The notes: a model not told the origin generated them from the sequence alone. 64,000 nucleotides of DNA from Candidatus Kaiserbacteria bacterium RIFCSPHIGHO2_01_FULL_53_29 (GCA_001781125.1 MFKT01000009.1:126840-190839), one strand, 5' to 3'; shown: positions 46,663 to 62,771, counted from the first letter of the stretch. Numbers and translations are program-made.

Positions 46663-46727
46663 ATGACCGTTAGTTTACCATAATCCTCACCGGGCGCGCA
46701 AAGCCCGATTTCATTAAATCTTGCGGA

Positions 46728-49700
46728 TCATGGCGTTTCCGTTGGTGCCGGAATTTGTTCTGGAGCGGGCTCCGGTGCCGGAGCGGGCGCGGGTTCTGGC
46801 GCGGGCTCCGGAGCGGGTTCTGGCGCGGGAGCTGGCGCGGGAGCTGGCTCCGGCGAAGGTGCGGGCTCGGGGGCGGGAGACGCTTCTTGCGGCGCGGCCT
46901 CGGCCGCGCCGCCTCCCGTATCTGCCGGAGCTTCTTCAACAGGGGCGTCTGCGGACGGCTCCTCGGCAGGCGAGTCCGGAGTCTCGCTTGGCGTGTCTCC
47001 CGCCGGTTCTTCCGCGGGCGGCGATTCAGGAGCAGGGGTTGGTTCTGGCACGGGTTCTGGCGCGGGAGCGGGAACGGGCGAACTTCCTCCCCCACTTGCT
47101 GCGGCAGCTGCCGATTGCGCACTCTGTGTGCCATTTTTGTCGAGCAGCGCCTTAAATTCCTCGCGCGTCACGCAGACATCTTCGAGGCAGAGCTTTTTGA
47201 CCGTGAGCTCATCGCCCGTTCCCCGCTTAAAGACGAGCTCGTCGGTCGTGAAGATGCGCGCATAGACGCTGTCGAAGATGCCGGCCACCGCGTAGATCGC
47301 GCTGTTGTACGCACGAACTACCATACCACCAAGACCCTCGAGCGCACTCTTCAGCCCATCCGATGCATCCGCGAATGCCGCGTACCACGGCGTCGTGGTC
47401 GCGAATTCTTCCCGCGGCGTCGTCGTCGCGTTCACTATTTCCGCCACGCTCGTTGTCGCGACAAGCGCGTCGAATTTCGCGTCGAGTTCTTGGATAGCGC
47501 CGATGGCAGGCGCGATTAGCTGTGTGTAGTCAAGCCCGAGGTAGCCGTTCTCAGGGTCAACGATAGAGATGGTATTGGGGAAATACTGCTGTACATTCTG
47601 CGCGAGAAAGCCAAGCTGAGTGGTGGAAGCCCCTATCATGTTGAAGGAGACTGGATTGAGTTGCAAAATTTTGGACAGCGAGCTGCCGAGAGAGGAGATG
47701 TTCTCCTTAAGCCGCTCGTCGGACACGTCGGTGATGGTGCCGGTGTACTCGATGTCTCCTGTGACGTCGAGCGCGACGGAGGGATCGGTCATGGCGATGC
47801 CGACGTTGCCTGCGTTGGTCACGATGAGGTGCGTCGTCGAAGAGCCGATGTAGAAGGAAGGAGACGTGTCTACGCCGCTCGGGAGGATGGAGAGGCGGCC
47901 CCATGGCGTCGAGGTGCCAATGCCGACGTTGCTCGAGAAGACGGCTCGACCGTCGACGGTGAGAGAAGGTGTGGAAGAAGCGGCTGTTGATGTCGCACTC
48001 TGGCCGATGCGGAGGCCGGTGCGGACGAACATTTCTTCCGCCATCGTGTATCCGGCATCAGAGACAGTGAGGTACGGGTAGTCGGCGCTGTTGCCGATGT
48101 GGAGGAGCGGCGAGGAGAATTGGTAGGTGCTGAGTGAGTCATTGAAGTCATCAATAAACGCCACGCGGTTGGGCGAGAGGGCGGCAAGAGCGGGAGTATC
48201 CTCTATACCGGAAATAGTGAGGCTGCTTCCTACTTGAGACCAAGTTGAGCCGTTAAATTCATAGACTGTGAGTAAATCGTGGTCTGAATGGAAGAACGCC
48301 ACGCGGTTCGGTGACATCGCCGCAAGCGCAGGAAAAGCCGCGTGATAGGCTGTAAGAGCCAGTGAGCTCCCGACTTTTGTCCATGTCGTGCCATTAAATT
48401 CGTATGTCGAAAGGCTATCAAGAGTTCGATCAGTGTACGCAATGCGGTTTGAATTAAGCGCTGCGATGGCGCCTTGAGAAAAACTTCCCGACGGTGTAAT
48501 GCTACTCCCGATAGATGACCATACGGATCCATTAAACTCATATGCTTGCACGACGCCAGTATCGTTATCAAGGAGAGCGATACGATTTGGGGCCAGTGCG
48601 GCAAGACTTGGAGTCTGACCTATACTACTCACTGTCAATCCACTACCTATTTGAGACCAACTAGAAACTCCGAATTCGTACACTCGGAGCGAGTCGTTAT
48701 TCGCGTCAAGATATGCGATGCGACTGGGAGAAAGCGCGGCAATCCCAACAACTTGATTACTGATCGTTATTGCAAGAGCGCTTCCCTGTTGAGTCCACGA
48801 GGCTCCGTCGAAAACATATTTTCTGAGTGAACCGCTACCGCTTACGAATGCCACAGAGTTGGGCGAAAGTGTCGCTATTGTAGGATAAACATGCGATAGA
48901 GATAGCGTGTTCCCCACCTGCGCCCACGTCTGTGCGAGTCCTGCTGATGAGATGGTCAATCTTCCTGTCGTCGAAGCATTGGAGCCGATGCCGAAATTTC
49001 CATTTGCCGAAAGATACATCGACGATGTGGCGGTGAGTGTGGTGCCGACGTACGAGAGCGTCTGCCCTGCGGTGCCGGATGGGAGTGAATCTCCGGCGAT
49101 GAGACACGAGCCAGAGATGGAGAAACATCCTCCCGCCAGATCAATGCCTCTTGCAAATGTGGAGGTCGCGGCAGTGCCGGTCACATTGAGGTATGGAGTA
49201 TCGAGTCCGTTGTAGATAGTGGAGGTGGCGGAGGCGTAGAAGTTGGCGGATGCGTTGATGGAGAAAAGCGAACCGGGAGTCGTCGTCCCGATACCGACGT
49301 TTCCAGCGTTGGTGACGATGAAGTGTGTCGTGGATGAACCGATGTAGAAAGAGGGGTCAGTGCCAACGCCGCTCGGGAGGATGGAGACCTTGCCCCATGG
49401 AGTGGAAGTCCCGACACCGACGTTGCTCGAGAAGACGGCTCGACCGTCGACGGTGAGGGATGGTGTGGAAGAAGCGGCTGTTGATGTCGCACTCTGGCCA
49501 ATGCGCAGACCGGTGCGGACGAACATCTCTTCCGCCATCGTGTATCCGGCATCAGAAACAGTGAGGTACGGATAGTCGATGCTGTTGCCAACGTGGAGGA
49601 GCGGCGAGGAGAATTGGTAGGTGCGGAGGGAGTCGTTGGTGACGTCAATGTATGCGACGCGGTTGGGCGAGAGCGTTGCTAGCGCAGGGATCGCGACGCC

Positions 49701-52700
49701 CGAGATCGAAAGGCTGCTTCCGACTTGGGACCACGAGGCGCCGTTCCACTCATACACCGTAAGTGAGTCGTTGGTCGCGTCGATTAAGGCGACGCGCGAA
49801 GGCGAGAGAGCGGTCAGCGCCGGGCTCGTGGCGGACGCGATCGTGAGGCCGCTGCCGATCTGCGACCAGGTTGAGCCGTTGAATTCATAGGTACGCAGGG
49901 ATGTATTGGCGTCGTCGAGGAACGCGATACGATTCGGTCCGAGCGCCGCCATGCCCGCGGCGGCCACGCCGCCTCCGATGGTCGTACTCGTCCCGACTTG
50001 ATTCCAAACAGAGCCGTTGAACTCGTACGTGCGCAATTGATCGTTCGTCGTTTCAATGAACGCTATGCGGTTCGGTGAGAGGCCGGCGAGTGCCGGAGGT
50101 GTCCCCGATGTGATAGTGAGACCGGTTCCGATCTGTGACCAGGTAGAGGTAGCGCTGAATTCATATACGCGCAGCTCATCGTTAGTGGCGTCAATAAAGG
50201 CGATGCGGTTCGGTGAGAGCTCCGCCATCGCTGCTGCCGCAGACGTGGTGATGCCCATACTGACACCAAGTTGCGACCAACTGACGCCGTTCCATTCGTA
50301 CGCCGCGAGGACGTTGTTGTTGTTCTCAAAGAGGGCAACACGATTCGGCGATAGCGCGGCCATGGCAGGACCGCCGGCGCCTGTCACCGTCTTTCCACTC
50401 CCCACCTGCGCCCACGTCTGCGCGAGTCCTGCTGAGGAGATGGTCAGCTTCCCTGTCGTCGAGGCGTTCGAGCCGATGCCGAAGTTGCCTGAGGCGGACA
50501 TATAGAGCGTCGAGGTGGCAGTGAGTGTGGTGCCATCCTCTTGATAGTAGGGCATGTATCCCGCAGTTCCGGAAACTACCGTCCCACCGGAGTTGATCAT
50601 CAAGCACGTGCCCGCCACAGAGAAACAGCCGCTGGAGATATTCACGCCGTTGGCGAACGTGGAAGAGGCTGAGGTACCGGTGAGGTTAAGGTATGGAGTG
50701 TTGAGACCGTTGTAGATGGTGGAGGTTGCGGAGGCGTAGAAGTTGGCGGAGCCGTTAACGGAGAAAAGCGAAGCAGGGGTTGAACTGCCGATGCCCACAT
50801 TCCCGGTCGACGTCATGATGAAGTGCGTTGCGGTCGAGGAGCCGATGAGGAAAGAGGGGTTCGTCCCGTTCCCCGGATCGATGGAGACCTTGCCCCACGG
50901 CGTCGACGTGCCAACACCGACGTTGCTCGAGAAGAGCGCCCGGCCGTCGACGGTGAGGGATGGAGTAGAAGATGCAGCTGTCGAGGTGGCGCTCTGGCCG
51001 ATGCGGAGAGTGGTCCGCACGGACATCTCCTCCGCCATCGTGTGACCGGCGTCGGAGACGGTGAGGTAGGGGTAGTCCGCGCTGTTGCCGATGTGGAGGA
51101 GGGGGGAGGAGAATTGGTACGTGCGAAGCTCGTCGTTGTTCACATCAATGTAGGCAACACGGTTTGTCGACATCCCAGCGAGTGCCGGGATCGCAACCGT
51201 CGAGATCGACAGGTTGCTGCCCACCTGGGTCCAGCCGGAACCATTGAATTCATACGTCTGCAATACGTCGTTCGTCGCGTCGATGAAGGCGACACGGTTT
51301 TGGGACAGGGTCGCGAGCGCGGGAGACGTTGCCGACGCAATAGTCAGTCCGCTTCCCTGCTGTATCCACGTGGAGCCGTCAAATTCATACACGCGCAAGG
51401 AAGTGGCATTGTCATCGATAAACGCGATACGGTTTGGCGATAGCGTCGTCATTGCGGCTGCGGTCATGCCCGTGAACGAGACTCCGGTTCCCACCTGCGA
51501 CCACGTCGAGCCATTGAGTTCGTAGACGCGAAGCGAATCGTTGGTCGCGTCGATGAACGCAACGCGATTTGGCGAAAGCGCAGTGAGCCACGGACTGCCC
51601 ACCGTAGAGATAGCAAGCTCCGTTCCCACTTGCGACCACGTCGACGTCGCGCTGAGTTCATACACGCGCAGCGCATCATTCGTCCCGTCAATGAATGCGA
51701 CGCGGTTCGGCGAGAGCGCAGCCACCGCTGCCGCGGCGGCAGTTGAAATGGAGTAGCTCGGTCCGACTTGCGCCCAGGCTGCGCCGTCGAACTCAAAGTT
51801 CTTGAGCACATTGTTGTTGTTTTCAAATACCGCGACTCTGTTCGGTGAAAGGACAGTGATCGTAGGACCGCCGGAGCCCGAGATCGCTTTACCACTTCCG
51901 ATCTGCTGCCACGTCTGAGCGAGTCCCGCTGAGGAGATCGTGAGCCGTCCCGTGGTGGAAGCGGTGACACCGATACCTACTTTTCCTGCTGTTGAAAGGT
52001 AGAGCGATGATGTGGCCGTGAGCGCGGTACCGGTGTTTTCGTAGAACGGGAAGTAGCCTTGAGTTCCTGAAGTGATCGTTCCGCTTCCCTCAGTAAGACA
52101 GCTGCCATTCAAGGCGAAACACCCGCCGGAGAGATCGATGCCGTTGGCGAAGGTGGAGCTCGCGCTCGAGCCCGTGATGTTGAGGTATGGCGTCTCGAGA
52201 CCGTTGTAAATAGTGGAGGTGGCGGAGGCGAAGAAGTTGGCGGAGCCGTTGATGGAAAAGAGCGAGCTCGGCGTCGTTGTGCCGATGCCGACGTTGCCCG
52301 TATTCGTGACTATGAGATGCGCAGCGGTTGTGGAGCCGATGAAGAGTGAAGGCTGTGTGTTGTTGCCACTCACATCTATGGAGAGCCTTCCCCACGGTGT
52401 CGACGTGCCGATACCGACGTTACTTGAGAAGACTGCGCGGCCGTCGACGGTGAGTGCGGGGGTGGAACTCGCCGCGGTCGAGGTTGCGCTCTGCCCGATG
52501 CGGAGTTCTGTACGAACATTGAGTGCTTCTGCACTTGTGAGTCCAGCATCGGAAACGGTGAGGTACGGGTAGTCACTGCTGTTGCCGATGTGGAGGAGTG
52601 GGGAGGAGAATTGGTAGGTGCGGAGGGAGTCATTCGTGACATCGATAAACGCGACGCGATTCGGTGAGAGGGCGGCGAGAGCGGGAATGGCTACCGTTGC

Positions 52701-55700
52701 GATGGAAAGACTGTTCCCAACCTGCGCCCAACTAGAGCCGTTCCACTCATACACTCTAAGCGAATCGTTGGTGGCGTCGATAAAGGCGACGCGGGTCGGC
52801 GAGAGAGCGGTGAGGGTGGGAACGCCTACGTCGGAGATGGCAAGACCAGTACCTATCTGCGACCACACCGTACCGTTCAGTTCGTACATCCGCAGCGACG
52901 CATTGCTATCGTCGATGAAGGCGACGCGATTCGGGGAGATGGTGGCAAGGGCGGGCGTACCGACCGAGGAGATGCTCGTACTCGCGATCTCCGACCATGT
53001 GGAGCCATTGAATTCGTACGTGCTCAACTTGTCGCTTGTGGAATCGATAAGGGCAATGCGGTTGGGAGAGAGGCCAGCGAGAGCGGGCGTGCCGACCGAT
53101 CCGATCGTGAGACCGCTCCCGACGGTCGACCAGGTAGACGTCGCGCTGAATTCGTATACGCGGAGGGTGTCGTTGGTGCCTTCGATAAATGCGACGCGAT
53201 TCGGAGAAAGTGCGGCGAGAGCAGCAGTCGCCGACGTGGTGATGGGATGACTCACGCCCAGTTGCGCCCATCCGGCGCCGTTCCATTCGTATGTCGCGAG
53301 TACGTTGTTATTGTTCTCGAACAGTGCTACTCGATTGGGAGAAAGGGCAGCGAGAGCGGGTGCGCCCGCACTAGAAACCGTAAGCCCACTCCCCACCTGC
53401 TCCCATGTCTGCGCGAGGCCGGCGGAGGAGACAGTGAGACGACCTGTCGTCGAGGCGTTGGAGCCGATGCCAAAGTTTCCGTTTGGTGAGAGATAGGTCG
53501 ACGAAGTGGCAGTCAGGGTAGTACCGACGTACGAGAGCGTCTGGCCTGCCGTGCCTGATGGGAGAGAATCTCCGGCGGTGAGACACGTACCACTAACCGA
53601 GAAACATCCTCCCGCAAGGTCGATGCCGCGGGCGAAGGTCGAAGTGGCGGACGTGCCGGTGATGTTGAGATATGGGGATTCGATTCCGCCGGTGAACGTG
53701 GTCGTCGCCGGAGAGCCGAACGTAAAGGCGCCGCTCGTCCCGCTGATTGCAGCGGCTGCGACGCTGGATGTTGCGGAGTACGTGGACGTGGCGAGGAAGA
53801 AGGAGCCGCCAGCGTTGCGGAAGGTCCACGAATTGTTGGTACCGTCGCCAAGCGCGAACTGCGGACCGGATGAATTTGAAGAGGTTAAAGTCCAATTCGG
53901 CGTCGTCGTACCAATGCCAACCTTACTGTTCCCGAGTACGGATAGAATTGAATTCGTCGAACTCGCAGTCGCAATGTTGAAGATGTTTGCGGTAGTGCCG
54001 ATCGTCGATGAGGACGAAAGGAAAGAGCCGGAGCCGGTGACGAGGAGCGAGTTGCCTACGGTGAGCCCGCCCCTAAAGTCGCCATCAGAAGCAAAGAGGT
54101 TGTTGCGGAGCGAGAGCGTGCCTGCCTCGATACCACCGGCTTCAAGTTGTTGAACGTATGCGCCGCCGAGGTCCCAGACCTCGAAGGAATTTGACGTGCC
54201 TGTATCCGCAAAATATGCATAGCGGCCTTGGACAAAGACTCCCCTTCCGGCATTGTTTAAGTTATACGTTGCAACCCTCACTGGCGCGGCAGGATTTGAC
54301 ACGTCCCATATTTGGAACCCGTTTGCGGCACTAATATTTGCTATATAAGCATATCGGCCTTGAACGAAGAGGCCCTCGGAACCACCCGGGATTGTGCTCA
54401 GCGAGATGCGAGTCGGCAATGCCGGATTTGAAACATCCCAGATCTCAAAATCGGTTGATTGGTTCGTAATGTATGCATAGCGACCCTGAATATATATCGC
54501 ACTGCAACAGGAATTTTTAGTATTGCTCGATACACGGAAGGGTGCAGCGGGGTTGGATACATCCCATATCTCGAACGTGCTTTGATTACTACCTGCCAGA
54601 TACGCGTATTTACCTTGCACTCGTATACTTCCGGTAACACCAGCGGTACTTGCAGAGACGCGCACAGGTGCCGCCGGATTTGAGACGTCCCAAATTTCAA
54701 ATCCGTCAGTAGCGACGTTATCAGATAGGTATGCATACCGTCCCTGAACGTAAATATTCCTCCCGGTTTGATTCAAGGTATTTTGCGAAACGCGTATCGG
54801 TGCTGAAGGATTGGAGACGTCCCAAATTTCAAATCCGTTAGTGGCAGTTAGATCCGCTATGTAAGCATAGTTGCCCTGAACCTGGATACTTACGCCGCTG
54901 CCATTGAGTGTATTGCTCGAAAGTCGGATCGGTGACTCCGGATTCGAAACATCCCAAATTTCAAATGCATTGGTAGTGCCTAGATCGACCAAGTAGGCAT
55001 AGCGGCCCTGCACATATATACCGAAGCCGTTTGTGTTAAGGGTTCCTTGTCCCACCCGCCGTGCCGTCGTTGTTCCCGCCATGACACTAAGTTGTGCGAT
55101 GGTTGATGAGGCAGTGCCCCCGATAATGACCTGGCCGGTGTTGTTGATGGAAAATAGATTCAGATTGGCGGTGTTGGAGAGCGTGGAGGATGCTATCTGA
55201 AAGAGCATCGAGTTGGTCTCGCCGTTGCTGGCCTGGATGGAAAACTTTGCGTACGGCGTGGTAGAGCCAATGCCGACACGGCTAGTGGTGTCTATATAAA
55301 GAGTCGATGTGGCCGTGAGGGTCGTGCCGACGTATGAGAGCGTCTGGCCTGCGGTGCCAGTTGGGAGTGAATCTCCGGCAGTGAGACACGAGCCAGAGAT
55401 GGAGAAACATCCGCCGGCGAGATCGATACCGCGGGCGAAGGTCGAGGTCGCGGCGGTGCCGGTGATGTTGAGGTATGGAGTATTGAGTCCGTTGTAGATA
55501 GTAGAGGTGGCACCGCTGTAGAACTGCGCGGCGCTTGCGACGGAGAAGAGAGAGCCGGGGGTGGTGGTGCCGACACCGAGGTAGCCGTTGGCATTGACGG
55601 TGAGGATGCCTTGGTTGGTGGAGCTTGCGATCTGGAAGAGGTTGCTGCCGGTGGTTCCGTTGACTACGAAGTTGCCGCCCGGAGTCGTGGTGCCGATGCC

Positions 55701-58700
55701 GACGTTGCCGGCGGAAGTGATGCTTAAACGAGCGTCTGACAAAGTGATGTTACTGGAATCCGCCGCATTGTTTGTTGCAAGATGTAGCGTGCCAAGTCCA
55801 CCAGGAGCGCGCCGTTCAAAAAAGATACCGCCTTTTCTGTTGGTGTCGGTCGTTACATCAGACACCTCAAACAACAATTGAGCAGTTACCCCCGTTGTTA
55901 CAGAACTAGTCTGAATGAGGATCGTACCATCAGAATTATCAGAAATATGTAATTTTTTGTTCGGAAGAGCAGTTCCGATGCCCACCTTTCCCGCTGTCGA
56001 GATGAAGAGCGAGGAGGTGGCGGTGAGCGTCGTGTCAACGTATGAGAGGGTCTGCCCTGCCGTGCCTGATGGGAGAGAATCTCCGGCGATGAGACACGAG
56101 CCAGAGATGGAGAAACATCCGCCGGCGAGGTCGATGCCCCGCGCGAAGGTGGAGGTCGCAGCAGTGCCGGTGATGTTGAGGTACGGTGATTCGATGCCGC
56201 CCGTGAACGTGGTCGTCGCCGGAGAGCCGAAAGTAAAGGCGCCGCTCGTCCCGCTGATTGCAGCGGCGGCGACAGTTGAGGTCGCAGAGTATGTAGAGGT
56301 CGCGAGGAAGAAACTGCCGCCTGCGTTCCTGAACGTCCACGCATTGTTCGTGCCGTCGGCAAGTGCGATCTGTGGGCCGGTTGACGAGGCCACCGTAAGT
56401 ACTGAGGACGGCGTGGTCGTGCCGATACCGACAGAGCGACCGGTCGTAAAGATGTTGGAGTTGGTAGTGGATGCGTATGTCCACACCTCGGGCGAGTTGG
56501 CGCGCTGCGTCCAGTTCTTGTTTTGATTGGCGGTGGAGCTGATAGGCGCTCGGTATATGACGTCGGACAAGCCCCCGCCACCCCCCAGTCCACCGAACAG
56601 AAATACGTTTTCTCCGATTACAGCAAGTGGTGAGTATCCTAGTACACCGGGGAGGCTCTTGCCAGTGTCATCCCAGTTAGTTGGATCGGATACGGGTGCA
56701 CGGTAGATGACTTTTGAACCCTGCCCACCGAACAAATAAATATAATCTCCCGCTATCAGCACCGATGAGGCCCCTAGATTACCTGGCAGCACTGCTCCCG
56801 TATTGCTCCAACTTAGGGGATTAGAGACGGGAGCGCGATAAATCACATTGGTAAAATCGGATCCATATCCACCGAGTAAATATACATAATCGCCGATAGT
56901 AACGACGCTTGAGTACGCGAGTCCCCCGGGAAGGGTCGCGCTGGTATTCGACCAGGCCGTTGGATTCGATACTGGAGCGCGGTAGATACTTGTAAGCCCG
57001 TTGGAACCTTGATCGCCTCCAAAGAAGTAAACGTAATTACCAATAGTTGCAATACTGCTTCCTTCAATCGAATCAGGTAATGTCGCACCAGTGTCGCTCC
57101 AACTGGTGGGATTGGAAACGGGGGCGCGGTAAATGACGTTGGTCACGGAGGTACCGTTAAAGCCGCCAAAAAGATAGACGTAATCTCCAATAACCGAGAT
57201 GTTTGAATGTGACAGATTCCCCGGAAGAGTTGCCCCCGTGTCACTCCAGCTTGTGGGGTTGGAGAGGGGGGCGCGGTAAATGACATTCGTATGCCCGTTC
57301 CCGGTTGTGCGACCACCGAAAAGATAAATGTAATCACCTATCACTGCCAACTTTGAGTACGCGAGAGTGGAGGGAAGCGTACTTCCCGTGTCCACCCAAC
57401 TTCCCGGATCGAATTGGTAGCGGACCTGGGAGACCATGGAAAGAGCTGTCCAGTTGGATGAGAGCGCGGTCGTGGAAGCGTATGCATTTCGGAATTCGAG
57501 CATGCCACCGTTCTCGCGAAGACCATAGCCTTGTGCGCCCGCGCCGTATGCACCGCCGAAGTTGAGGTAGCGACTGCCCCCGTCGAGGTGGATGTTGCCG
57601 TACACGGCGAGTGTCGTGGAAGCGTATGGCGTCGTCGTACCGATGCCGAGGCTCCCCGCACTCGTAAAGGTGAGCGTGGATGAAGAAGTGAGTGTGCTTC
57701 CGGCAGAGAAGTATGCGAGCTGATTTGCTGTGCCAGAGCCTCCGATACCGCCGAGGCCCGCTGCGGAGAGACAGGTACCACTGATGGAATAGCAGCCGCC
57801 GGCGAGATCGATGCCGCGTGCGAACGTCGAGGTCGCAGCAGTGCCGGTGATGTTGAGGTAGGTGGAGGAGAGTCCATTTGAAAATGTTGATGTTCCACTT
57901 CCCTGCACGATGAGATTGCCTGTTGTCGTTGCTCCTCCGTATATGGTGAGGCCCGTGGTCTGTGTGCCACCGCCGATCGTTGAGCTCGCCGTCGAGATGA
58001 GCCCGGCGAAGGTCGAGAGGCCCGAGACACCGAGCGTCGAGCTAATGGTCTGCGCGCCGGTGAGCGCGAGAGTGGAGCCGTCGAACGTGAGGTTGGACGA
58101 TGATGTCAGGCTATCGGCATCCGAGTAGTACGCGAGACGATTGGCCGCACCAGCACCATCGAGGCCGCCGAGTCCTGTGGCAGAAAGACATGAGCCAGAG
58201 ATGGAGAAACAGCCGCCCGCGAGATCAATGCCCCGCGCGAAGGTGGAGGTGGCGGCTGTGCCGGTGATGTTGAGGTATGGTGATTCGATTCCGCCGGTGA
58301 ACGTGGTCGTCGCCGGAGAGCCGAAGGTGAACGCGCCGGTGCTGGCACTGATAGCGGCTGCGGCGACGGTGGAGGTCGCTGAGTATGTAGAGGTCGCGAG
58401 GAAGAAGGAGCCGCCAGCGTTGCGGAAGGTCCACGAGTTGTTGGTGCCGTCGCCGAGTGCGAACTGCGGACCTGTCGAGGATGCGATGGTCAGCGAGAAG
58501 AACGGTGTCGTCGTGCCGATGCCCACTTGCCCTGTCGACTTCCATATGCCCGATGGTAGATATGTCGAACCCGAAGAATCGATGTGCAAGGCGGTCGTCG
58601 AGGCGCTCGTGACCGCTTCAAAGATGTTGCCGGAGCTCGGTCCCCAGACGGTGAGCTTGGAGTACGGCGTCGAAGTGCCGAGGCCGAGCTTGCCACCGCT

Positions 58701-61700
58701 GCTGAGCGAAGTGAGTCGCAAGAGACTGCTTCCGGAAGTCGTGTAGTTGAGAGTGATGGAGTCGAGGACGGGCGTGTCGGAGCCGCCGCTAAAGATGACG
58801 CGGTAGTAGAAGTTGCTGCCGGTCCACGCGAGCGTGGAGAGCGAGACAGAGTTGCTCCCGACCGAGAGCGTGGTCGAAGCATTTGTAGTGCCCGCGGCAC
58901 TCTTCCACGTGCTGTTGTCCTGTGAGAACTGCACGCTCGCCCATGTGCCTGAGGGCAGCGCGGAGAGGGTGTAGTCGAGGGAGTCTATTGAAGAGACCGT
59001 ACCGCCCTCCGAGGAGAGGAGGTTGGTGGAGGTGGTGGTGCCGACGGACTTGTATGCGCCTGCTTCCACGGACCTGGAATATTGATAGACCGTGTCGTTT
59101 CCGATACCAACGATGTACATTTTCGAGCCGTCCGTCTTGAAGGCCATTCCGTACGGCTGGCTTTCTTGCGCTGCCACGCTCTTGGAGTCTGAGTCGTACG
59201 TTGCCGTGGAAATATCCCATGCGGTTGACAATGTATATTGGTAGACGGAGTCGCCCGTTGTATTGCCGAGCACATACATTTTCGTACCGGCCGATGAGAA
59301 CTCTACTTTATAGGGTTCACCGGTTTGAGACGATACGCTCTTTGATACCGAGTCGTACGATGCGGTCGAGACGTCCCAGGCAGAGGAAAGAGAATACTGC
59401 CAGACGCGCCCCCCAGTAATACCGATGACGTACATTTTTGTGCCGTCCGTCTTGAATGTTACGCCCACGGGATAAGTCTCTTGAGCACTGACGCTTTTAG
59501 ATTTTGATGCGTACGTGGCTGTAGAGACGTCCCACGGCGTAGAGAGTGTGTATTGATACACCGTGTCGTTCACGACACCCACGAGGTACATCTTTGATCC
59601 GTCGGTGCTGAATGCCATGCCGTACGGATCAGACTCCTGCGAACTAGCGGAGACACTCTTGTTGGCGTAGGAAGCTGACGAAACGACCCAGGCGGAAGAA
59701 AGCGTGTATTGAAAAACCGTATCGTCCGATCCATTGGCGAACCTAAGCGCATACATCTTGGTGCCATCGTCGTTAAAATTGACGGCTACAGGAAAGTCAG
59801 ATATTTGTTCACTTAAACTTTTGGATACGCTGTCGTATGAGAATTCGCTCACGTTGTTAGTATTGAGGGAGAGCGTCACCTGCCCACCACTCACGGTGGT
59901 CTGTGTCGCCGAGTCGATCTTGCTCGAATCGGCGTACGAGTCGGAATTGGTACTCGAGCCTCCCCCGCCGGTGATGTCGAGGGGTGTGAGGCTTGAGCTG
60001 GTCGCTGCGAGAGAAAGGAGGGAGCCCGGAGTGGTGGAGCCGATACCGAGGCGTGTGCCGTCGAAGACGAATCCGGAATTTGATGAGAGCGTCGTCGAGT
60101 CAGAAAAGAATGCGACGCGACTCGCAGCTCCCGAGCCGCCGACGCCGCCGAGGCCCGTGGCGGACAAACAAGTACCACTAATAGAGAAACATCCTCCCGC
60201 GAGGTCAATGCCTCTTGCAAATGTGGAAGTGGCGGCTGTGCCCGTGATGTTGAGGTACGGACTCTGGATGCCGGAAGAGAACGTGCTCGTAGCAGAACCA
60301 TTGAGATAGATGGAGCCGGTGCCGACCTTGAGCCCGCCCGCGATCTCGACATTCCCAGCGAAGGTCGACGAGGCCGAAGTCCCCTGGACGATGAGCGCTT
60401 GCGTCGTCGTCGCGCCGCCGTACACCGTGAGCCCGGTGGTTTGTCCGCCGCCGCCGATAGTTGAACTTGCTGTTGAAATGAGCCCGGCGAGCGTGGAGAG
60501 ACCGGAGACACCGAGTGTCGAGCTGATCGTCTGCGCGCCGGTAAGCGCGAGCGTCGAGCCGTCGAACGTGAGGTTGGACGATGATGTCAGGCTATCGGCA
60601 TCCGAGTAGTACGCGAGACGATTGGCCGCACCTGCCCCATCGAGGCCGCCGAGTCCTGTGGCAGAAAGACACGCGCCCGAGATGGAGAAACATCCGCCCG
60701 CCAGATCGATGCCGCGGGCGAAGGTGGAGGTGGCGGCGGTGCCCGTGATGTTGAGATACGGACTCTGAATGCCTGCGGCAAATGTTGAAGTCGCACTCGT
60801 CGAAGTGGCGGTGATGTAGTTGACCGTCGGGCTCGTCGAAGCCGCAAGCGCGCCCGTGCCGCCGCTCGAGTAGAGCCAGCCTTGACCGAAAGTTGCTGCG
60901 CCCGTGCCGCCGCTTGCAACGCCGAGCGTTCCGGAGATAGTAGAGAGCGTCGTCGATGCGGTCCATGTCGGGATTCCATTGAGATACGCGAGAATGTATC
61001 CGGCAGTACCGGTCGTCGTCGTTGAAAGCGCGCCGGTGCCGTTGCCGTATGGAATTGCGCTTGCAGCGATGTTGGCCCATCCCGTGCCACCGTTTGCGAT
61101 CGGAAGAATTCCCGTCACGTCGCTCGCGAGGTCGACAAGCGCTGTCGTCACCGCTCCCGCGACCGCTTTCAAGAATCCGGTGACGTTGGAAAAGGTAAAC
61201 GAATTGGATGCGACGAGAGCCGAGGTCGAGGCGGTGCCTGTGACGCCGAGATTGGTGCTCGTCGCGTTGACAAGCGTGGTTGCACCGGTAACCCCGAGCG
61301 TGCCCGCGACGGAAAGATTCCCCGCGGAGTCGATGGTGGTCGTCGCTGTGCCGCCGAAGTAGGCGGTGCCGAAGTTAGAGAAATTGGTTGAAGACGCACC
61401 AGCAGAAAAGATCTGAAGTGCAGTCCATGTGTTGGCTGCGGAGAGGCTGGCGCCCGCGCCTCCAGCTGATATGCACGTGCCGTCTATCGCGAAGCAGCCG
61501 TCCGCAATATCGATGCCGTTGGCAAAGCTCGAGGTCGCGGTGCCTGACACCGTGAGCGCGTTCGTCGATGCCCCGGCGGAAAACGTTTGAAGGGCCGACC
61601 ACGTGTTGGCGTTCGTCGTGTCGAGTGTGATCGTGCCATCGCTCGTTATCGTGCCGCCTGCGAGACCAGTGCCCGCAGTGATGGATGAGATGCCGCTATT

Positions 61701-62771
61701 GCCACCGCCGCTACTTCGAATGATCGTGGTGGTCTGCGTCGTCGTGGCTACCGAAATGATCGGACGATTGGCGGAGCCTGTTATCACGACGTTCTCGCCC
61801 GCTTGGATCCCATTGACGACATTGGATGCAAATATCTTGCCGCTTCCGAGGTCTATATCCGCTCCGCGTGTCGATATCCCACCCAAGGCGGAAACTGCGT
61901 TATAAAATGTTGACGCGCCGTTGAATGTACTCGCACCACCAAAAGTGCTTTGGCCGCTCGCAGTAAATGACCCTACCCGAACGAGTTGCGCGAATGACGA
62001 AGGCCCGCTGACGATGAGTGATTCAGAGAGGCGAAGCGGGACATTCATAGCTATGGATCCGGGAAGAACGATGTCGGGGCGCGCAACAGTCGTTCCGCCA
62101 ATGGTCTGCAACGAAGAGGCGCTGCGGGTCGTGCCTACGGGAGTGGAGCTGTCGCGAGAGGGGGTCAGCGTATCACCACCTTGGGCAAGGTGCGCCGCCG
62201 CGGCCTGCCTCCGCACATTTTCAGAAATAGGAAGATGGAGTGTCTGTGCAACTGTGGCGGATATTTTGATAGTCCCGGCCCTGAGGTGTGTTACCGTGTT
62301 GCGCGCAAATTCCTCTAGTTGCTTCGGCTGCACAAACGCATATGCGCTACCCGCAAGAGCAAAAAGACCCGAGAGTATGACGACAGCGGCAACTCGCGGC
62401 ATTGGAAGATACAGGAGTGTGCGTACTTTTGTATCCACACCATCGAGAGCCGCGATCGGAGATACGCCGGGAGTCTGTGGGAGCGGCACTCCTGATGAAG
62501 GATCAGTATTCGCTTCTCTCGTGTGCTCCTGATACTCCCGAATACGCTCCTTCCGAAGCACTTCAGCACTCTCAACTTTCAGCGCACTCTGGCCCTGCAG
62601 AAATTCTTTCAAAGAAGATCCGTCGACATACCATGTTTTGCCGATCGGTTTTCCGCGAACCTTTCCGGTTCGGCAAAGACGAGTAACATGGTCGCGCGTA
62701 ACGCCGGCAGCGTCCGCCGCAGCTTGCGCCGAAATACATATCGAACCGTCAATGAAAATGTGATCGGTCAT
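46728..62771 (-). CDS. Giant (5347 aa) multi-repeat surface protein: N-terminal HTH + TM helix, fibre-like Gly/Thr/Ser-rich repeats, Kelch and LVIVD beta-propellers, four ~500-aa tandem super-repeats, C-terminal tail-spike-type intramolecular chaperone (peptidase S74) domain and PE/PA-rich tail
   Basis: A single uninterrupted 16,044-nt ORF. N-terminal HTH: TRDHVTRLCRTGKVRGKPIGKTWYVDGSSLKEFL. TM helix: VAAVVILSGLFALAGSAYAFV. The motif PYLNITGTAATSTFARGIDLAGGCFSISG occurs about ten times. Kelch-like blades: GDYVYLFGG...VIYRAPVSNP. LVIVD blades: GRYAYxAD...GFEIWDVSNPxxP. Repeated blades ALAALSPNRVAFIDxTNDSLRVYEFNGSxWSQVG. C-terminal ...TGTITDVSDERLKENISSLG...LNPVSF... is the endosialidase/tail-fibre chaperone signature. 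The final ~100 aa are Pro/Glu/Ala-rich. Confidence 0.85.
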   Translation of the reverse strand: MTDHIFIDGSICISAQAAADAAGVTRDHVTRLCRTGKVRGKPIGKTWYVDGSSLKEFLQGQSALKVESAEVLRKERIREYQEHTREANTDPSSGVPLPQTPGVSPIAALDGVDTKVRTLLYLPMPRVAAVVILSGLFALAGSAYAFVQPKQLEEFARNTVTHLRAGTIKISATVAQTLHLPISENVRRQAAAAHLAQGGDTLTPSRDSSTPVGTTRSASSLQTIGGTTVARPDIVLPGSIAMNVPLRLSESLIVSGPSSFAQLVRVGSFTASGQSTFGGASTFNGASTFYNAVSALGGISTRGADIDLGSGKIFASNVVNGIQAGENVVITGSANRPIISVATTTQTTTIIRSSGGGNSGISSITAGTGLAGGTITSDGTITLDTTNANTWSALQTFSAGASTNALTVSGTATSSFANGIDIADGCFAIDGTCISAGGAGASLSAANTWTALQIFSAGASSTNFSNFGTAYFGGTATTTIDSAGNLSVAGTLGVTGATTLVNATSTNLGVTGTASTSALVASNSFTFSNVTGFLKAVAGAVTTALVDLASDVTGILPIANGGTGWANIAASAIPYGNGTGALSTTTTGTAGYILAYLNGIPTWTASTTLSTISGTLGVASGGTGAATFGQGWLYSSGGTGALAASTSPTVNYITATSTSATSTFAAGIQSPYLNITGTAATSTFARGIDLAGGCFSISGACLSATGLGGLDGAGAANRLAYYSDADSLTSSSNLTFDGSTLALTGAQTISSTLGVSGLSTLAGLISTASSTIGGGGQTTGLTVYGGATTTQALIVQGTSASSTFAGNVEIAGGLKVGTGSIYLNGSATSTFSSGIQSPYLNITGTAATSTFARGIDLAGGCFSISGTCLSATGLGGVGGSGAASRVAFFSDSTTLSSNSGFVFDGTRLGIGSTTPGSLLSLAATSSSLTPLDITGGGGSSTNSDSYADSSKIDSATQTTVSGGQVTLSLNTNNVSEFSYDSVSKSLSEQISDFPVAVNFNDDGTKMYALRFANGSDDTVFQYTLSSAWVVSSASYANKSVSASSQESDPYGMAFSTDGSKMYLVGVVNDTVYQYTLSTPWDVSTATYASKSKSVSAQETYPVGVTFKTDGTKMYVIGITGGRVWQYSLSSAWDVSTASYDSVSKSVSSQTGEPYKVEFSSAGTKMYVLGNTTGDSVYQYTLSTAWDISTATYDSDSKSVAAQESQPYGMAFKTDGSKMYIVGIGNDTVYQYSRSVEAGAYKSVGTTTSTNLLSSEGGTVSSIDSLDYTLSALPSGTWASVQFSQDNSTWKSAAGTTNASTTLSVGSNSVSLSTLAWTGSNFYYRVIFSGGSDTPVLDSITLNYTTSGSSLLRLTSLSSGGKLGLGTSTPYSKLTVWGPSSGNIFEAVTSASTTALHIDSSGSTYLPSGIWKSTGQVGIGTTTPFFSLTIASSTGPQFALGDGTNNSWTFRNAGGSFFLATSTYSATSTVAAAAISASTGAFTFGSPATTTFTGGIESPYLNITGTAATSTFARGIDLAGGCFSISGSCLSATGLGGLDGAGAANRLAYYSDADSLTSSSNLTFDGSTLALTGAQTISSTLGVSGLSTFAGLISTASSTIGGGTQTTGLTIYGGATTTGNLIVQGSGTSTFSNGLSSTYLNITGTAATSTFARGIDLAGGCYSISGTCLSAAGLGGIGGSGTANQLAYFSAGSTLTSSSTLTFTSAGSLGIGTTTPYASTTLAVYGNIHLDGGSRYLNFGGAYGAGAQGYGLRENGGMLEFRNAYASTTALSSNWTALSMVSQVRYQFDPGSWVDTGSTLPSTLAYSKLAVIGDYIYLFGGRTTGNGHTNVIYRAPLSNPTSWSDTGATLPGNLSHSNISVIGDYVYLFGGFNGTSVTNVIYRAPVSNPTSWSDTGATLPDSIEGSSIATIGNYVYFFGGDQGSNGLTSIYRAPVSNPTAWSNTSATLPGGLAYSSVVTIGDYVYLLGGYGSDFTNVIYRAPVSNPLSWSNTGAVLPGNLGASSVLIAGDYIYLFGGQGSKVIYRAPVSDPTNWDDTGKSLPGVLGYSPLAVIGENVFLFGGLGGGGGLSDVIYRAPISSTANQNKNWTQRANSPEVWTYASTTNSNIFTTGRSVGIGTTTPSSVLTVASSTGPQIALADGTNNAWTFRNAGGSFFLATSTYSATSTVAAAAISGTSGAFTFGSPATTTFTGGIESPYLNITGTAATSTFARGIDLAGGCFSISGSCLIAGDSLPSGTAGQTLSYVDTTLTATSSLFISTAGKVGIGTALPNKKLHISDNSDGTILIQTSSVTTGVTAQLLFEVSDVTTDTNRKGGIFFERRAPGGLGTLHLATNNAADSSNITLSDARLSITSAGNVGIGTTTPGGNFVVNGTTGSNLFQIASSTNQGILTVNANGYLGVGTTTPGSLFSVASAAQFYSGATSTIYNGLNTPYLNITGTAATSTFARGIDLAGGCFSISGSCLTAGDSLPTGTAGQTLSYVGTTLTATSTLYIDTTSRVGIGSTTPYAKFSIQASNGETNSMLFQIASSTLSNTANLNLFSINNTGQVIIGGTASSTIAQLSVMAGTTTARRVGQGTLNTNGFGIYVQGRYAYLVDLGTTNAFEIWDVSNPESPIRLSSNTLNGSGVSIQVQGNYAYIADLTATNGFEIWDVSNPSAPIRVSQNTLNQTGRNIYVQGRYAYLSDNVATDGFEIWDVSNPAAPVRVSASTAGVTGSIRVQGKYAYLAGSNQSTFEIWDVSNPAAPFRVSSNTKNSCCSAIYIQGRYAYITNQSTDFEIWDVSNPALPTRISLSTIPGGSEGLFVQGRYAYIANISAANGFQIWDVSNPAAPVRVATYNLNNAGRGVFVQGRYAYFADTGTSNSFEVWDLGGAYVQQLEAGGIEAGTLSLRNNLFASDGDFRGGLTVGNSLLVTGSGSFLSSSSTIGTTANIFNIATASSTNSILSVLGNSKVGIGTTTPNWTLTSSNSSGPQFALGDGTNNSWTFRNAGGSFFLATSTYSATSSVAAAAISGTSGAFTFGSPATTTFTGGIESPYLNITGTSATSTFARGIDLAGGCFSVSGTCLTAGDSLPSGTAGQTLSYVGTTLTATSSTYLSPNGNFGIGSNASTTGRLTVSSAGLAQTWEQVGSGLTVSSAGAPALAALSPNRVALFENNNNVLATYEWNGAGWAQLGVSHPITTSATAALAALSPNRVAFIEGTNDTLRVYEFSATSTWSTVGSGLTIGSVGTPALAGLSPNRIALIDSTSDKLSTYEFNGSTWSEIASTSISSVGTPALATISPNRVAFIDDSNASLRMYELNGTVWSQIGTGLAISDVGVPTLTALSPTRVAFIDATNDSLRVYEWNGSSWAQVGNSLSIATVAIPALAALSPNRVAFIDVTNDSLRTYQFSSPLLHIGNSSDYPYLTVSDAGLTSAEALNVRTELRIGQSATSTAASSTPALTVDGRAVFSSNVGIGTSTPWGRLSIDVSGNNTQPSLFIGSTTAAHLIVTNTGNVGIGTTTPSSLFSINGSANFFASATSTIYNGLETPYLNITGSSASSTFANGIDLSGGCFALNGSCLTEGSGTITSGTQGYFPFYENTGTALTATSSLYLSTAGKVGIGVTASTTGRLTISSAGLAQTWQQIGSGKAISGSGGPTITVLSPNRVAVFENNNNVLKNFEFDGAAWAQVGPSYSISTAAAAAVAALSPNRVAFIDGTNDALRVYELSATSTWSQVGTELAISTVGSPWLTALSPNRVAFIDATNDSLRVYELNGSTWSQVGTGVSFTGMTAAAMTTLSPNRIAFIDDNATSLRVYEFDGSTWIQQGSGLTIASATSPALATLSQNRVAFIDATNDVLQTYEFNGSGWTQVGSNLSISTVAIPALAGMSTNRVAYIDVNNDELRTYQFSSPLLHIGNSADYPYLTVSDAGHTMAEEMSVRTTLRIGQSATSTAASSTPSLTVDGRALFSSNVGVGTSTPWGKVSIDPGNGTNPSFLIGSSTATHFIMTSTGNVGIGSSTPASLFSVNGSANFYASATSTIYNGLNTPYLNLTGTSASSTFANGVNISSGCFSVAGTCLMINSGGTVVSGTAGYMPYYQEDGTTLTATSTLYMSASGNFGIGSNASTTGKLTISSAGLAQTWAQVGSGKTVTGAGGPAMAALSPNRVALFENNNNVLAAYEWNGVSWSQLGVSMGITTSAAAAMAELSPNRIAFIDATNDELRVYEFSATSTWSQIGTGLTITSGTPPALAGLSPNRIAFIETTNDQLRTYEFNGSVWNQVGTSTTIGGGVAAAGMAALGPNRIAFLDDANTSLRTYEFNGSTWSQIGSGLTIASATSPALTALSPSRVALIDATNDSLTVYEWNGASWSQVGSSLSISGVAIPALATLSPNRVAYIDVTNDSLRTYQFSSPLLHVGNSIDYPYLTVSDAGYTMAEEMFVRTGLRIGQSATSTAASSTPSLTVDGRAVFSSNVGVGTSTPWGKVSILPSGVGTDPSFYIGSSTTHFIVTNAGNVGIGTTTPGSLFSINASANFYASATSTIYNGLDTPYLNVTGTAATSTFARGIDLAGGCFSISGSCLIAGDSLPSGTAGQTLSYVGTTLTATSSMYLSANGNFGIGSNASTTGRLTISSAGLAQTWAQVGNTLSLSHVYPTIATLSPNSVAFVSGSGSLRKYVFDGASWTQQGSALAITISNQVVGIAALSPSRIAYLDANNDSLRVYEFGVSSWSQIGSGLTVSSIGQTPSLAALAPNRIALLDNDTGVVQAYEFNGSVWSSIGSSITPSGSFSQGAIAALNSNRIAYTDRTLDSLSTYEFNGTTWTKVGSSLALTAYHAAFPALAAMSPNRVAFFHSDHDLLTVYEFNGSTWSQVGSSLTISGIEDTPALAALSPNRVAFIDDFNDSLSTYQFSSPLLHIGNSADYPYLTVSDAGYTMAEEMFVRTGLRIGQSATSTAASSTPSLTVDGRAVFSSNVGIGTSTPWGRLSILPSGVDTSPSFYIGSSTTHLIVTNAGNVGIAMTDPSVALDVTGDIEYTGTITDVSDERLKENISSLGSSLSKILQLNPVSFNMIGASTTQLGFLAQNVQQYFPNTISIVDPENGYLGLDYTQLIAPAIGAIQELDAKFDALVATTSVAEIVNATTTPREEFATTTPWYAAFADASDGLKSALEGLGGMVVRAYNSAIYAVAGIFDSVYARIFTTDELVFKRGTGDELTVKKLCLEDVCVTREEFKALLDKNGTQSAQSAAAAASGGGSSPVPAPAPEPVPEPTPAPESPPAEEPAGDTPSETPDSPAEEPSADAPVEEAPADTGGGAAEAAPQEASPAPEPAPSPEPAPAPAPAPEPAPEPAPEPAPAPAPEPAPEQIPAPTETP
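47400..53400. repeat. Four tandem ~1.5-kb near-identical intragenic repeats (each ~498 codons) within the giant gene
   Basis: The anchor peptide on the antisense ORF track (M.TPLGRME..PHGVEVP.PTLLEKTARPSTVR.GVEEAAVDVALWPMRRPVRTNISSAIVYPASETVRYG) recurs at 47866, 49360, ~50870 and ~52380, a period of 1494 nt. The corresponding sense-strand peptide is TVDGRAVFSSNVGIGTSTPWGRLSI. Confidence 0.6.

What the first reader, a model, noticed from the sequence alone, without database searches (positions are those of the whole stretch)
47400..53400. Four tandem 1.5-kb near-identical intragenic repeats; likely hotspot for recombination and length variation
The antisense ORF track shows the same ~70-aa peptide four times with a 1494-nt period (47866, 49360, ~50870, ~52380). 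The sense-strand units are also near-identical (…LHIGNSxDYPYLTVSDAG…TVDGRAVFSSNVGIGTSTPWG…PYLNxTG…STTGRLTISSAGLAQTW…6x ALAALSPNRVAF blades…). Nucleotide-level conservation this high implies recent duplication or ongoing gene conversion. The copy number is therefore probably variable between cells or strains, and it is a classic source of short-read assembly error.
Basis: seen in the sequence. Interest (0 to 1): 0.6.

Follow-up and report, generated by a model that had tools for sequence, protein, structure and literature searches.

The report
Four old, diverged repeats in giant gene
The four 1.5-kb repeats are real, but they are old copies only 62-71% identical in DNA. Each encodes a six-bladed propeller plus stalk inside a 5,347-residue surface-fibre gene of a Kaiserbacteria (CPR) bacterium, so this is ordinary domain duplication and not an unstable near-identical array.

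Summary
The repeat is confirmed: four head-to-tail units with periods of 1494, 1500 and 1497 nt lie at window 47778-53672. They sit inside one 16,044-nt gene (46728-62771, minus strand, 5,347 aa). Each unit encodes a six-bladed beta-propeller and about 230 aa of stalk and connector.

"Near-identical" is wrong. Whole units are 62-71% identical in DNA and 60-74% in protein. The longest exact shared run is 41 nt. In the propellers, synonymous codons match no more often than chance.

Only one stalk block keeps raised identity: 91% over 252 nt between units 3 and 4. I read this as an old local gene-conversion tract.

The four units form one clade (99.8% bootstrap) against modules from relatives that carry a single copy. 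The duplication is therefore lineage-specific but ancient, and the copies are kept by purifying selection (dN/dS about 0.1-0.2).

A second assembly from another sample has the same four-unit structure (3 mismatches in 10.8 kb). Four fragmentary contigs do end at unit 3's conserved block, so the repeat does fragment weak assemblies.

The protein looks like a membrane-anchored fibre resembling a phage tail fibre, with four unrelated propeller types and a C-terminal Peptidase_S74 chaperone. Interest is low to moderate.

The parts
46728..62771 (-). Single giant gene, 5,347 aa. Modular surface-fibre protein of a Candidatus Kaiserbacteria bacterium.
   Evidence: Uninterrupted ORF. Domain hits along its whole length. 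Called as a 5347-residue product on independent contigs.
52188..53672 (-). Repeat unit U1 (aa 3034-3528): connector head, six-bladed propeller (aa 3124-3389; window 52605-53402), stalk.
50694..52187 (-). Repeat unit U2 (aa 3529-4026); propeller aa 3622-3888 (window 51108-51908).
49194..50693 (-). Repeat unit U3 (aa 4027-4526); propeller aa 4121-4388 (window 49608-50411). This is the unit modelled with AlphaFold2.
47778..49193 (-). Repeat unit U4 (aa 4527-4998). It is the most diverged unit and is truncated at its 3' end, where the S74 region begins. Propeller aa 4617-4886 (window 48114-48923).
49289..49776 (-). Conserved stalk block of U3. Paralogue of 47795-48284 in U4: 82.5-83% identity over 491 nt, with a core (49422-49673 vs 47928-48179) at 90.9% over 252 nt. 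Likely an old gene-conversion tract. Fragmentary contigs from other samples end here.
47795..48284 (-). Conserved stalk block of U4, partner of 49289-49776. Exact shared runs of 41, 38 and 32 nt.
47571..47723 (-). Peptidase_S74 intramolecular chaperone / auto-processing domain (aa 5017-5067), with Ser5017 and Lys5022.
   Evidence: Pfam 48.5 bits against a cutoff of 22. S and K invariant in the alignment. Matches to C-termini of PHROG tail-fibre families. Foldseek top hits are MyRF ICA and the endosialidase chaperone, from a low-confidence model.
54168..55058 (-). LVIVD-repeat propeller (aa 2572-2868), a different propeller family in the same protein.
   Evidence: Pfam PF08309, E = 1.4e-35; internal repeats.
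56535..57410 (-). Kelch-type propeller (aa 1788-2079).
   Evidence: Pfam Kelch families; internal repeats.
59070..59855 (-). Region of about five SGL/lactonase-like blades (aa 973-1234).
   Evidence: Weak Pfam SGL hit; internal repeats of 55-63%.
62328..62408 (-). The only predicted transmembrane segment (aa 122-148).
   Evidence: Kyte-Doolittle scan; this is the only window above 1.8.
62589..62732 (-). N-terminal HTH_17-like domain (aa 14-61), conserved at the N-terminus of homologous large proteins.
   Evidence: Pfam 25 bits, just under the cutoff of 27; BLASTP to N-termini of P0135/L013, L016, P0129, P0213 and P0134.
46731..47099 (-). Pro/Ala/Glu-rich low-complexity C-terminal tail, with short tandem DNA repeats of period 12-36 nt at 46757-46848. 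It is a second site where short contigs end.
57979..58277 (-). Connector copy that forms the most similar DNA repeat pair in the gene (with 60460-60758): 90.3% over 299 nt, with a 77-nt exact run.

Best explanation
The interval is the 3' third of one 16-kb gene of a Candidatus Kaiserbacteria (Patescibacteria/CPR) bacterium from aquifer metagenomes.

The gene encodes a 5,347-aa modular surface protein. From the N-terminus it has a short HTH-like domain, one transmembrane helix and then about 5,000 extracellular residues. In that stretch a recurring Cys-x6-Cys connector and Gly/Ser/Thr-rich stalk segments alternate with beta-propellers of four unrelated families. It ends with a Peptidase_S74 intramolecular-chaperone domain of the kind that folds and then cuts itself off trimeric phage tail fibres.

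The four 1.5-kb repeats are four copies of one module: a six-bladed propeller plus about 230 aa of stalk and connector. They arose by whole-module tandem duplication within this lineage, after the propeller itself had been built from one 45-aa blade. The duplication is old, because synonymous sites are saturated. All four copies have been kept by purifying selection, so they now differ by 29-38% in DNA. Only a 250-490 nt stalk block still shows raised DNA identity, strongest between the last two units, most simply explained by a past short gene-conversion event.

Shown here: the architecture, the identities, the age, the common origin of the four units, and the same structure in a second sample. 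Inferred: the protein is a trimeric adhesive fibre, and the four propeller tiers give reach and multivalent binding to a partner-cell surface.
For: Repeat geometry.

Identities: DNA 62-71%, protein 60-74%. BLASTN self-hits of 68.9% over 3327 nt and 71.2% over 1638 nt. Longest exact runs 21-41 nt.

Age and selection: whole-unit dN 0.20-0.34 and dS 1.4-2.2. Same-codon use in the propellers is at the random expectation.

Local tract between U3 and U4: 92% DNA identity, dS 0.31, same-codon fraction 0.81 against 0.34 expected.

Fold: AlphaFold2 gives pLDDT above 90 for residues 90-365, with six four-stranded blades. Foldseek matches six-bladed NHL/Pizza6 and Kelch propellers at E about 1e-11.

Order of events: blades at the same position in different units are 61% identical, against 45% for other blade pairs.

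Common origin: U1-U4 form one clade in 99.8% of NJ bootstraps against the modules of L013-L015 and L023-L027, each of which occurs once in its protein.

Same structure elsewhere: L008, from another sample, has 3 mismatches over 10,769 nt.

Fibre character: Pfam S74, invariant Ser/Lys, PHROG tail-fibre C-termini and MyRF ICA / 3gw6 fold hits. There is a single TM segment and 11 C-x6-C pairs.

Organism and cellular context.
Against: The stalk and connector parts of the unit model have pLDDT below 50, and the C-terminal model is poor (mean 49.9). The trimeric-fibre picture therefore rests on family membership, not on a structure.

No ligand or partner is known, and the propeller matches are generic (10-18% identity).

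The raised identity of the stalk block could reflect constraint at the nucleotide level and not conversion.

A collapse of copies identical over more than a read or insert length cannot be excluded from the sequence alone.

Only two long contigs were compared base by base. The other six are only reported as having mostly the same neighbouring proteins.
Confidence: 0.75

Rival explanations
1. The units are young or are continuously homogenised by gene conversion, so unequal crossing-over changes unit number between cells or strains (a variable-number tandem-repeat adhesin).
For: There is a local block of high identity between U3 and U4 (90.9% over 252 nt, exact runs of 41, 38 and 32 nt) with too many shared synonymous codons. 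Four fragmentary contigs end at that block. Elsewhere in the family, unit number ranges from 1 to 8, and one relative (P0199) has units 96-100% identical in protein.
Against: Whole units are 62-71% identical. dS is saturated and propeller codon matching is at chance level. Two independent assemblies are collinear. The divergent end of L010 is error-rich sequence, not another unit. By established knowledge, RecA-dependent recombination needs roughly 25 nt or more of perfect identity and falls steeply with divergence. On that basis only the U3/U4 block is a plausible, inefficient substrate.
Confidence: 0.08
2. Assembly artefact. The four-unit array is a mis-assembly: a collapse of more copies, or a chimeric expansion, produced by a short-read assembler.
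For: The contig comes from a k-mer assembler (names begin k141_). Other assemblies of the same population break inside the gene.
Against: Every unit is unique: the longest exact repeat inside the array is 41 nt, and 77 nt anywhere in the gene. That is shorter than the 141-nt k-mer implied by the k141_ contig names (my inference from the naming). The reading frame is intact over 16 kb. An independent sample gives the same sequence. Collapse would require extra copies identical to an existing unit, for which there is no sign.
Confidence: 0.05
3. Module shuffling. The four propeller-stalk modules were acquired separately from other fibre genes through the conserved connectors, and did not duplicate in place.
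For: The protein is a mosaic with 10 conserved connectors. The connector heads of U1 and U4 resemble each other and the connectors at aa 2197 and 2433 more than they resemble those of U2 and U3. Relatives combine the same module with other domains.
Against: U1-U4 form one clade at 99.8% bootstrap. The regular 1494-1500 nt period and the conservation of each blade's position across units fit in-place duplication.
Confidence: 0.04

Closest known systems
Phage tail fibres / endosialidases with a C-terminal intramolecular chaperone (Peptidase_S74, PF13884; e.g. K1F endosialidase 3GW6, T5 pb1 4UW8); eukaryotic MyRF ICA domain
   Same: There is a Pfam S74 match above threshold with the Ser...Lys pair spaced as S-x4-K. 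GNVGIGTTTP-type stalk motifs precede it. Tail-fibre C-terminal PHROG families match, and the fold hits are 7dc3 and 3gw6.
   Different: The gene is in a cellular genome, not a phage. The protein is anchored by an N-terminal transmembrane helix and carries seven propeller tiers. The S74 domain is followed by about 280 further residues, including a conserved Cys-containing segment and a Pro-rich tail. Cleavage and trimerisation were not tested.
Giant bacterial surface proteins built from repeated propellers (e.g. RCC1-type giant proteins of Oscillospiraceae; West-Roberts et al., bioRxiv 10.1101/2023.11.21.568195)
   Same: It is a very long, extracellular, repeat-rich protein. The propellers arose by amplification and diversification within a gene, and the repeats cause assembly fragmentation.
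   Different: At 5,347 aa it is far below the sizes above 30,000 aa described there. It has four different propeller families, not one. The host is a CPR bacterium. An S74 chaperone is present.
Variable-number tandem-repeat adhesins (Rib/alpha-C, SasG/Aap, Bap, Ebh). Recalled from my own knowledge, not tested here.
   Same: These are also in-frame tandem repeats of a whole folded module in a surface protein.
   Different: Those repeats are typically 90-100% identical in DNA, and their number differs between strains. Here the units are 62-71% identical and no variation was seen.
Beta-propellers amplified from single blades (Pereira & Lupas 2022, PMC9218822)
   Same: The 24 blades are still 45% identical to one another on average. 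The propeller is therefore a relatively young amplification of one 45-aa blade, nested inside the 498-aa unit repeat.
   Different: The repeat flagged here is one level higher: whole propeller plus stalk.
Other members of the same propeller-stalk family in Patescibacteria (L013, L023-L027, P0129, P0199)
   Same: They share the propeller and stalk block. P0129, P0135, L016 and others share the N-terminal HTH-like plus TM anchor. L024 also has S74.
   Different: 172 of 187 sampled members carry one copy. P0129 has two, at 71% identity. P0199 has eight, some of them identical. The window's gene has four old copies.

Membership tests
   61.8-70.7% over whole units; BLASTN 68.9-71.2%.
   Two long contigs from different samples are collinear, and 8 long contigs are reported as similar. 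No long reads or read depth were available.
   dS above 1 or saturated; propeller codon matching is at the random expectation. The only exception is the 75-codon block between U3 and U4.
Six-bladed beta-propeller | Six four-stranded blades closing a ring | tested here: met
   AF2 pLDDT above 90 for residues 90-365 with 24 strands in six groups. Foldseek to Pizza6/NHL/Kelch at E about 1e-11. Six sequence blades per unit.
Peptidase_S74 / intramolecular chaperone auto-processing domain | Profile match above the curated threshold | tested here: met
   PF13884, 48.5 bits against a cutoff of 22, aa 5017-5067.
Peptidase_S74 / intramolecular chaperone auto-processing domain | Catalytic Ser at the cleavage site and Lys five residues downstream | tested here: met
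   S5017 and K5022 (sequence SDERLK) are invariant among 12 aligned sequences.
Peptidase_S74 / intramolecular chaperone auto-processing domain | Fold of the chaperone domain | tested here: inconclusive
   The model has pLDDT of only 64-80 in this part. The top Foldseek hits are MyRF ICA 7dc3 (E = 3.6e-4) and 3gw6 (E = 0.4).
Peptidase_S74 / intramolecular chaperone auto-processing domain | Trimerisation of the upstream fibre and self-cleavage | not testable with these tools
   Needs multimer modelling or biochemistry.
Phage tail fibre (as a virion component) | Encoded in a phage or prophage next to virion genes | tested here: not met
   The neighbours are RNR, Mur ligases, PHO4, F420 ligase and polysaccharide genes. 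The viral collection has only 26-27% relatives of the unit.

The most novel reading that the evidence does not exclude
The protein is a contact-sensing device, not a passive adhesin. In this reading a cytoplasmic HTH DNA-binding domain is tethered by one transmembrane helix to a 5,000-aa fibre that resembles a tail fibre and is folded by an S74 chaperone. Its seven propeller tiers, four of them the repeat, engage a host cell. Host contact or proteolysis would then alter or release the HTH domain and switch gene expression in an episymbiotic CPR bacterium. The conserved stalk blocks would in addition act as rare recombination joints that change the number of tiers.
Probability: 0.07. Interest if true: 0.7.

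Novelty: new member of a known kind. Interest (0 to 1): 0.25.

Why it matters
For the finding as stated, the result is mainly corrective. The array is not a near-identical, unstable repeat, and its copy number in this assembly can be trusted as far as sequence alone allows. It should not be flagged as a likely mis-assembly or a hypervariable locus.

The gene as a whole is of moderate interest for CPR biology. It combines four unrelated propeller families with a phage-type S74 chaperone on one membrane-anchored fibre, which makes it a candidate host-attachment structure in a group whose attachment mechanisms are poorly known.

The family survey shows that unit number ranges from 1 to 8 between lineages.

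Tried and rejected
- Tandem Repeats Finder found only the short Pro-rich repeats, because its period limit is 500.
- tRNA and Rfam scans of the window were empty.
- BLASTP of the whole protein against itself returned only the identity hit, so I used chunked comparisons instead.
- Exact look-up of the 5,347-aa protein in the clustered collection failed. That collection appears to lack very long proteins, so lengths of cluster members could not be used to test copy number. The first homology search likewise returned only proteins shorter than 872 aa.
- The genome and metagenome scans found no contig of the same species with the array; the best matches were 52-57% identical.
- PDB sequence searches with the C-terminal region and with the stalk gave nothing useful.
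- NCBIfam gave only a sub-threshold PA5033-family hit.
- Literature searches for S74 or tail-fibre-like proteins in CPR bacteria found nothing specific.
- I checked whether the divergent end of contig L010 was an alternative unit junction. It is error-rich contig-end sequence and matches no other unit better.
- I tested whether the connectors are homogenised by conversion. Their dS is 0.4-2, so their conservation is mostly at the protein level.
- Promoter and terminator scans at both ends of the gene were uninformative.


Full report
**The observation**

The interval lies inside a single uninterrupted ORF at window 46728-62771 on the minus strand, encoding 5,347 aa. A repeat search finds four copies of a 300-nt segment at 47886, 49380, 50880 and 52377, spaced 1494, 1500 and 1497 nt (family D4).

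In the protein, the anchors YLNxTG (aa 3034, 3529, 4027, 4527), SSAGLAQTW (3115, 3613, 4112, 4608) and LHxGNS (3393, 3892, 4392, 4890) each recur four times. A blade motif recurs 24 times, six per unit, with a 45-46 aa period. Four tandem units of about 1.5 kb with six blades each are therefore real.

I set the units at 52188-53672, 50694-52187, 49194-50693 and 47778-49193. The last unit is cut short where the C-terminal domain starts.

**How similar the units are**

In a codon-aware alignment of whole units, DNA identity is 61.8-70.7% and protein identity 59.6-73.7%. BLASTN agrees independently: 68.9% over 3327 nt and 71.2% over 1638 nt. A sliding window gives 40-75% identity through the propeller parts. 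It rises to 75-93% only in about 75-110 codons around QFSSPLLHIGNS...TVDGRAVFSSNVGIGTSTPWG. The longest exact run shared by any two units is 41 nt (U3/U4); for the other pairs it is 21-29 nt.

Its own refutation condition (much less than ~85% identity) is met.

The most similar DNA repeat in the gene lies outside the flagged interval. It is a pair of connector copies at 57979-58277 and 60460-60758, 90.3% identical over 299 nt, with a 77-nt exact run.

**Age and selection**

Whole-unit comparisons give dN of 0.20-0.34 and dS of 1.4-2.2. In the propellers, dS is 1.5 to not computable.

As a saturation-proof check, I counted how often residues conserved between two units use the same codon. In the propellers the fraction is 0.31-0.49. 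The gene's own codon usage predicts 0.36-0.37. Synonymous sites there carry essentially no memory of common ancestry.

With dN/dS of about 0.1-0.2, all four copies have been maintained by purifying selection for a long time.

The stalk block is the exception. All pairs show some excess there (0.45-0.58 against 0.34 expected), and U3/U4 stand out at 0.81 (z = 8.2), with dS 0.31 and 92% DNA identity. The simplest reading is a past short gene-conversion event between the two 3'-most units. Nucleotide-level constraint is an alternative I cannot exclude.

The ten connectors along the protein are 77-98% identical in protein but have dS of 0.4-2. They are conserved mainly at the protein level.

**Origin of the four units**

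Blades at the same position in different units are more alike (61%) than different blades within or between units (45%). A finished six-bladed module was therefore duplicated as a whole.

In relatives found in species-representative genomes and JGI metagenomes, the propeller-plus-stalk module occurs once per protein. These include L013, L014, L015, L016 and L023-L027, among them proteins of 2,879 and 3,058 aa.

In a neighbour-joining tree of the module, U1-U4 form one clade in 99.8% of bootstraps. U4 is the deepest branch. U4 is about as far from U1-U3 (57-62%) as U1 is from the single-copy module of L023 (62%). This again points to an old, lineage-specific amplification.

A profile search of 1.84 billion representative proteins finds 6,083 relatives at E <= 1e-3. 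Among the 187 retrieved proteins that carry the propeller, 172 have one copy, 8 have two, and three have four, five or eight. P0129 has two copies that are 71% identical. P0199 has eight, of which three are 100% identical and two are 96% identical in protein. Arrays with units identical in protein therefore exist in this family, but not in this window.

**Stability and assembly**

The window is 100% identical to ENA contig ERZ4903055 k141_2557389, which is 124.6 kb long. A 111-kb contig from another sample (ERZ4903137) is collinear from 45894 to 56662 with three mismatches, none of them in the array. The look-ups report eight contigs of 50-200 kb at this locus with mostly the same neighbouring proteins.

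All exact repeats in the array are 41 nt or shorter, and every unit is unique. A collapse or a chimeric path is therefore unlikely unless hidden copies identical to an existing unit exist. Only read depth or long reads can settle that.

Fragmentation is seen. Four short contigs or fragments from other samples end at about 49538 (P0001), 49666 (L010), 49779 (L004) and 49866 (L009). All of these lie at or next to U3's conserved block. L010's divergent last 100 nt are error-rich contig-end sequence and match no other unit better, so I saw no alternative junction.

A second cluster of contig ends lies in the Pro/Ala/Glu-rich tail, which has short tandem DNA repeats at 46757-46848.

**What the gene encodes**

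The neighbours are ordinary cellular genes: ribonucleotide reductase, Mur ligases, PHO4/PhoU and F420-ligase-like. Their exact protein sequences are deposited as Candidatus Kaiserbacteria, in Patescibacteria.

From the N-terminus, the giant protein has:
- an HTH_17-like domain at aa 14-61 (25 bits, just under the Pfam cutoff);
- the only hydrophobic segment, at aa 122-148;
- a Ser/Thr/Gly/Ala-rich region in which a connector (...YLNITGTAATSTFARGIDLAGGCFSISGxCL) recurs at ten YLNxTG sites, with C-x6-C Cys pairs at these connectors (11 pairs in all);
- between the connectors, an SGL/lactonase-like region of about five blades (aa 973-1234), a Kelch propeller (aa 1788-2079), an LVIVD propeller (aa 2572-2868), and the four copies of the unit's propeller;
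- Peptidase_S74 at aa 5017-5067 (48.5 bits against a cutoff of 22), with Ser5017 and Lys5022 invariant among homologues. The surrounding 160 residues match the C-termini of many PHROG tail-fibre families. A low-confidence model still picks out the MyRF ICA domain and the endosialidase chaperone.

AlphaFold2 models the unit's propeller with pLDDT above 90 as six four-stranded blades. The stalk is not modelled confidently as a monomer. The nearest solved folds are generic six-bladed NHL/Pizza6 and Kelch propellers at 10-18% identity, so no ligand can be inferred.

Differences between the units are somewhat concentrated in loops. Mean pairwise identity is 0.53 in loops and 0.62 in strands.

**Mechanism**

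Shown: a membrane-anchored, largely extracellular, modular protein with seven propeller tiers and an intact S74 motif.

Inferred from what the S74 family does in phage fibres and endosialidases (established knowledge): the C-terminal domain nucleates trimerisation of the stalk and then cleaves at Ser5017. This would leave a fibre anchored by its N-terminal helix.

The four repeated tiers would add about 2,000 residues of length and up to twelve copies of one binding domain per trimer. That suggests multivalent binding to a repetitive surface, such as a host cell wall or polysaccharide. It would fit the episymbiotic lifestyle of cultivated Patescibacteria (abstract of PMC11623550, listed). This functional part is inference; I put it at roughly even odds.

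**Comparison with known systems and verdict**

The gene works like a phage tail fibre with an intramolecular chaperone, and like other giant repeat-propeller surface proteins (bioRxiv 10.1101/2023.11.21.568195). The blade-level symmetry fits the amplification-from-single-blades picture (PMC9218822).

It does not qualify as a variable-number tandem-repeat adhesin, because the defining near-identity of units was tested and not met.

The flagged feature is an ordinary, ancient intragenic module duplication: a new member of a known kind. The gene as a whole is a moderately interesting candidate attachment fibre of a CPR bacterium. Its conserved cytoplasmic HTH-like N-terminus remains unexplained.

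Noticed in passing
window 62328-62732 (-), aa 14-148 of the giant protein; also L013, L015, L016, P0129, P0134, P0135, P0213: An HTH_17-like domain followed by a single transmembrane helix forms the N-terminus of the giant protein. It is conserved at residue 1 of several homologous large Patescibacteria proteins, and also occurs in small neighbouring genes of related loci. A DNA-binding-type fold tethered to a huge extracellular fibre has no explanation so far.
   Followed up: partly
window 46731-47099 (-), with DNA tandem repeats at 46757-46848: The Pro/Ala/Glu-rich low-complexity tail after the S74 domain has short tandem repeats of period 12-36 nt at 72-83% matches. Many short contigs from other samples end here (L002, L011, L012, L047-L051), so it is a second assembly break point in the gene.
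   Followed up: partly
window 57979-58277 and 60460-60758 (-): This is the most similar DNA repeat pair in the gene: 90.3% over 299 nt with a 77-nt exact run. The two copies are connectors 2,481 nt apart (aa 672-771 and 1499-1598, 92-97% identical in protein).
   Followed up: partly
protein P0199 (3,133 aa; representative library): This distant family member has eight propeller units with a period of about 411 aa. Three of them are 100% identical and two are 96% identical in protein. It is either a recent tandem amplification or an assembly artefact in another organism.
   Followed up: no
window 46139-46662 (-): A ParE-family toxin gene (98 aa) overlaps a 76-aa upstream gene, presumably the antitoxin, immediately downstream of the giant gene. 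In one deposited genome the ParE gene is called as only 62 aa (OGG91818.1).
   Followed up: no
window 874-25118: A large surface-glycan gene cluster. It includes a PseB-like dehydratase, a DegT aminotransferase, two CMP-sugar cytidylyltransferases, a HisF/HisH-like pair, a capsule-synthesis protein, an ABC exporter and at least six GT4 glycosyltransferases. This suggests synthesis of a nonulosonic-acid-containing polysaccharide or of glycans for protein glycosylation.
   Followed up: no
window 37777-40299 (-): An 840-aa Mur ligase carries N-terminal MurL_N and MurL-epimerase domains (precomputed Pfam hits). It sits next to a second Mur ligase and a fused YkuD L,D-transpeptidase / D-Ala-D-Ala carboxypeptidase gene (29951-31510).
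   Followed up: no
giant protein: 11 C-x6-C pairs between aa 426 and 4556 (e.g. 426/433, 694/701 ... 4549/4556), plus aa 5195/5200: The connectors carry C-x6-C Cys pairs (11 pairs in total). After the S74 domain there is a conserved LCxxxVCVT segment that is shared with homologues. These are probably disulfide-stapled loops, which is consistent with an extracellular location.
   Followed up: partly
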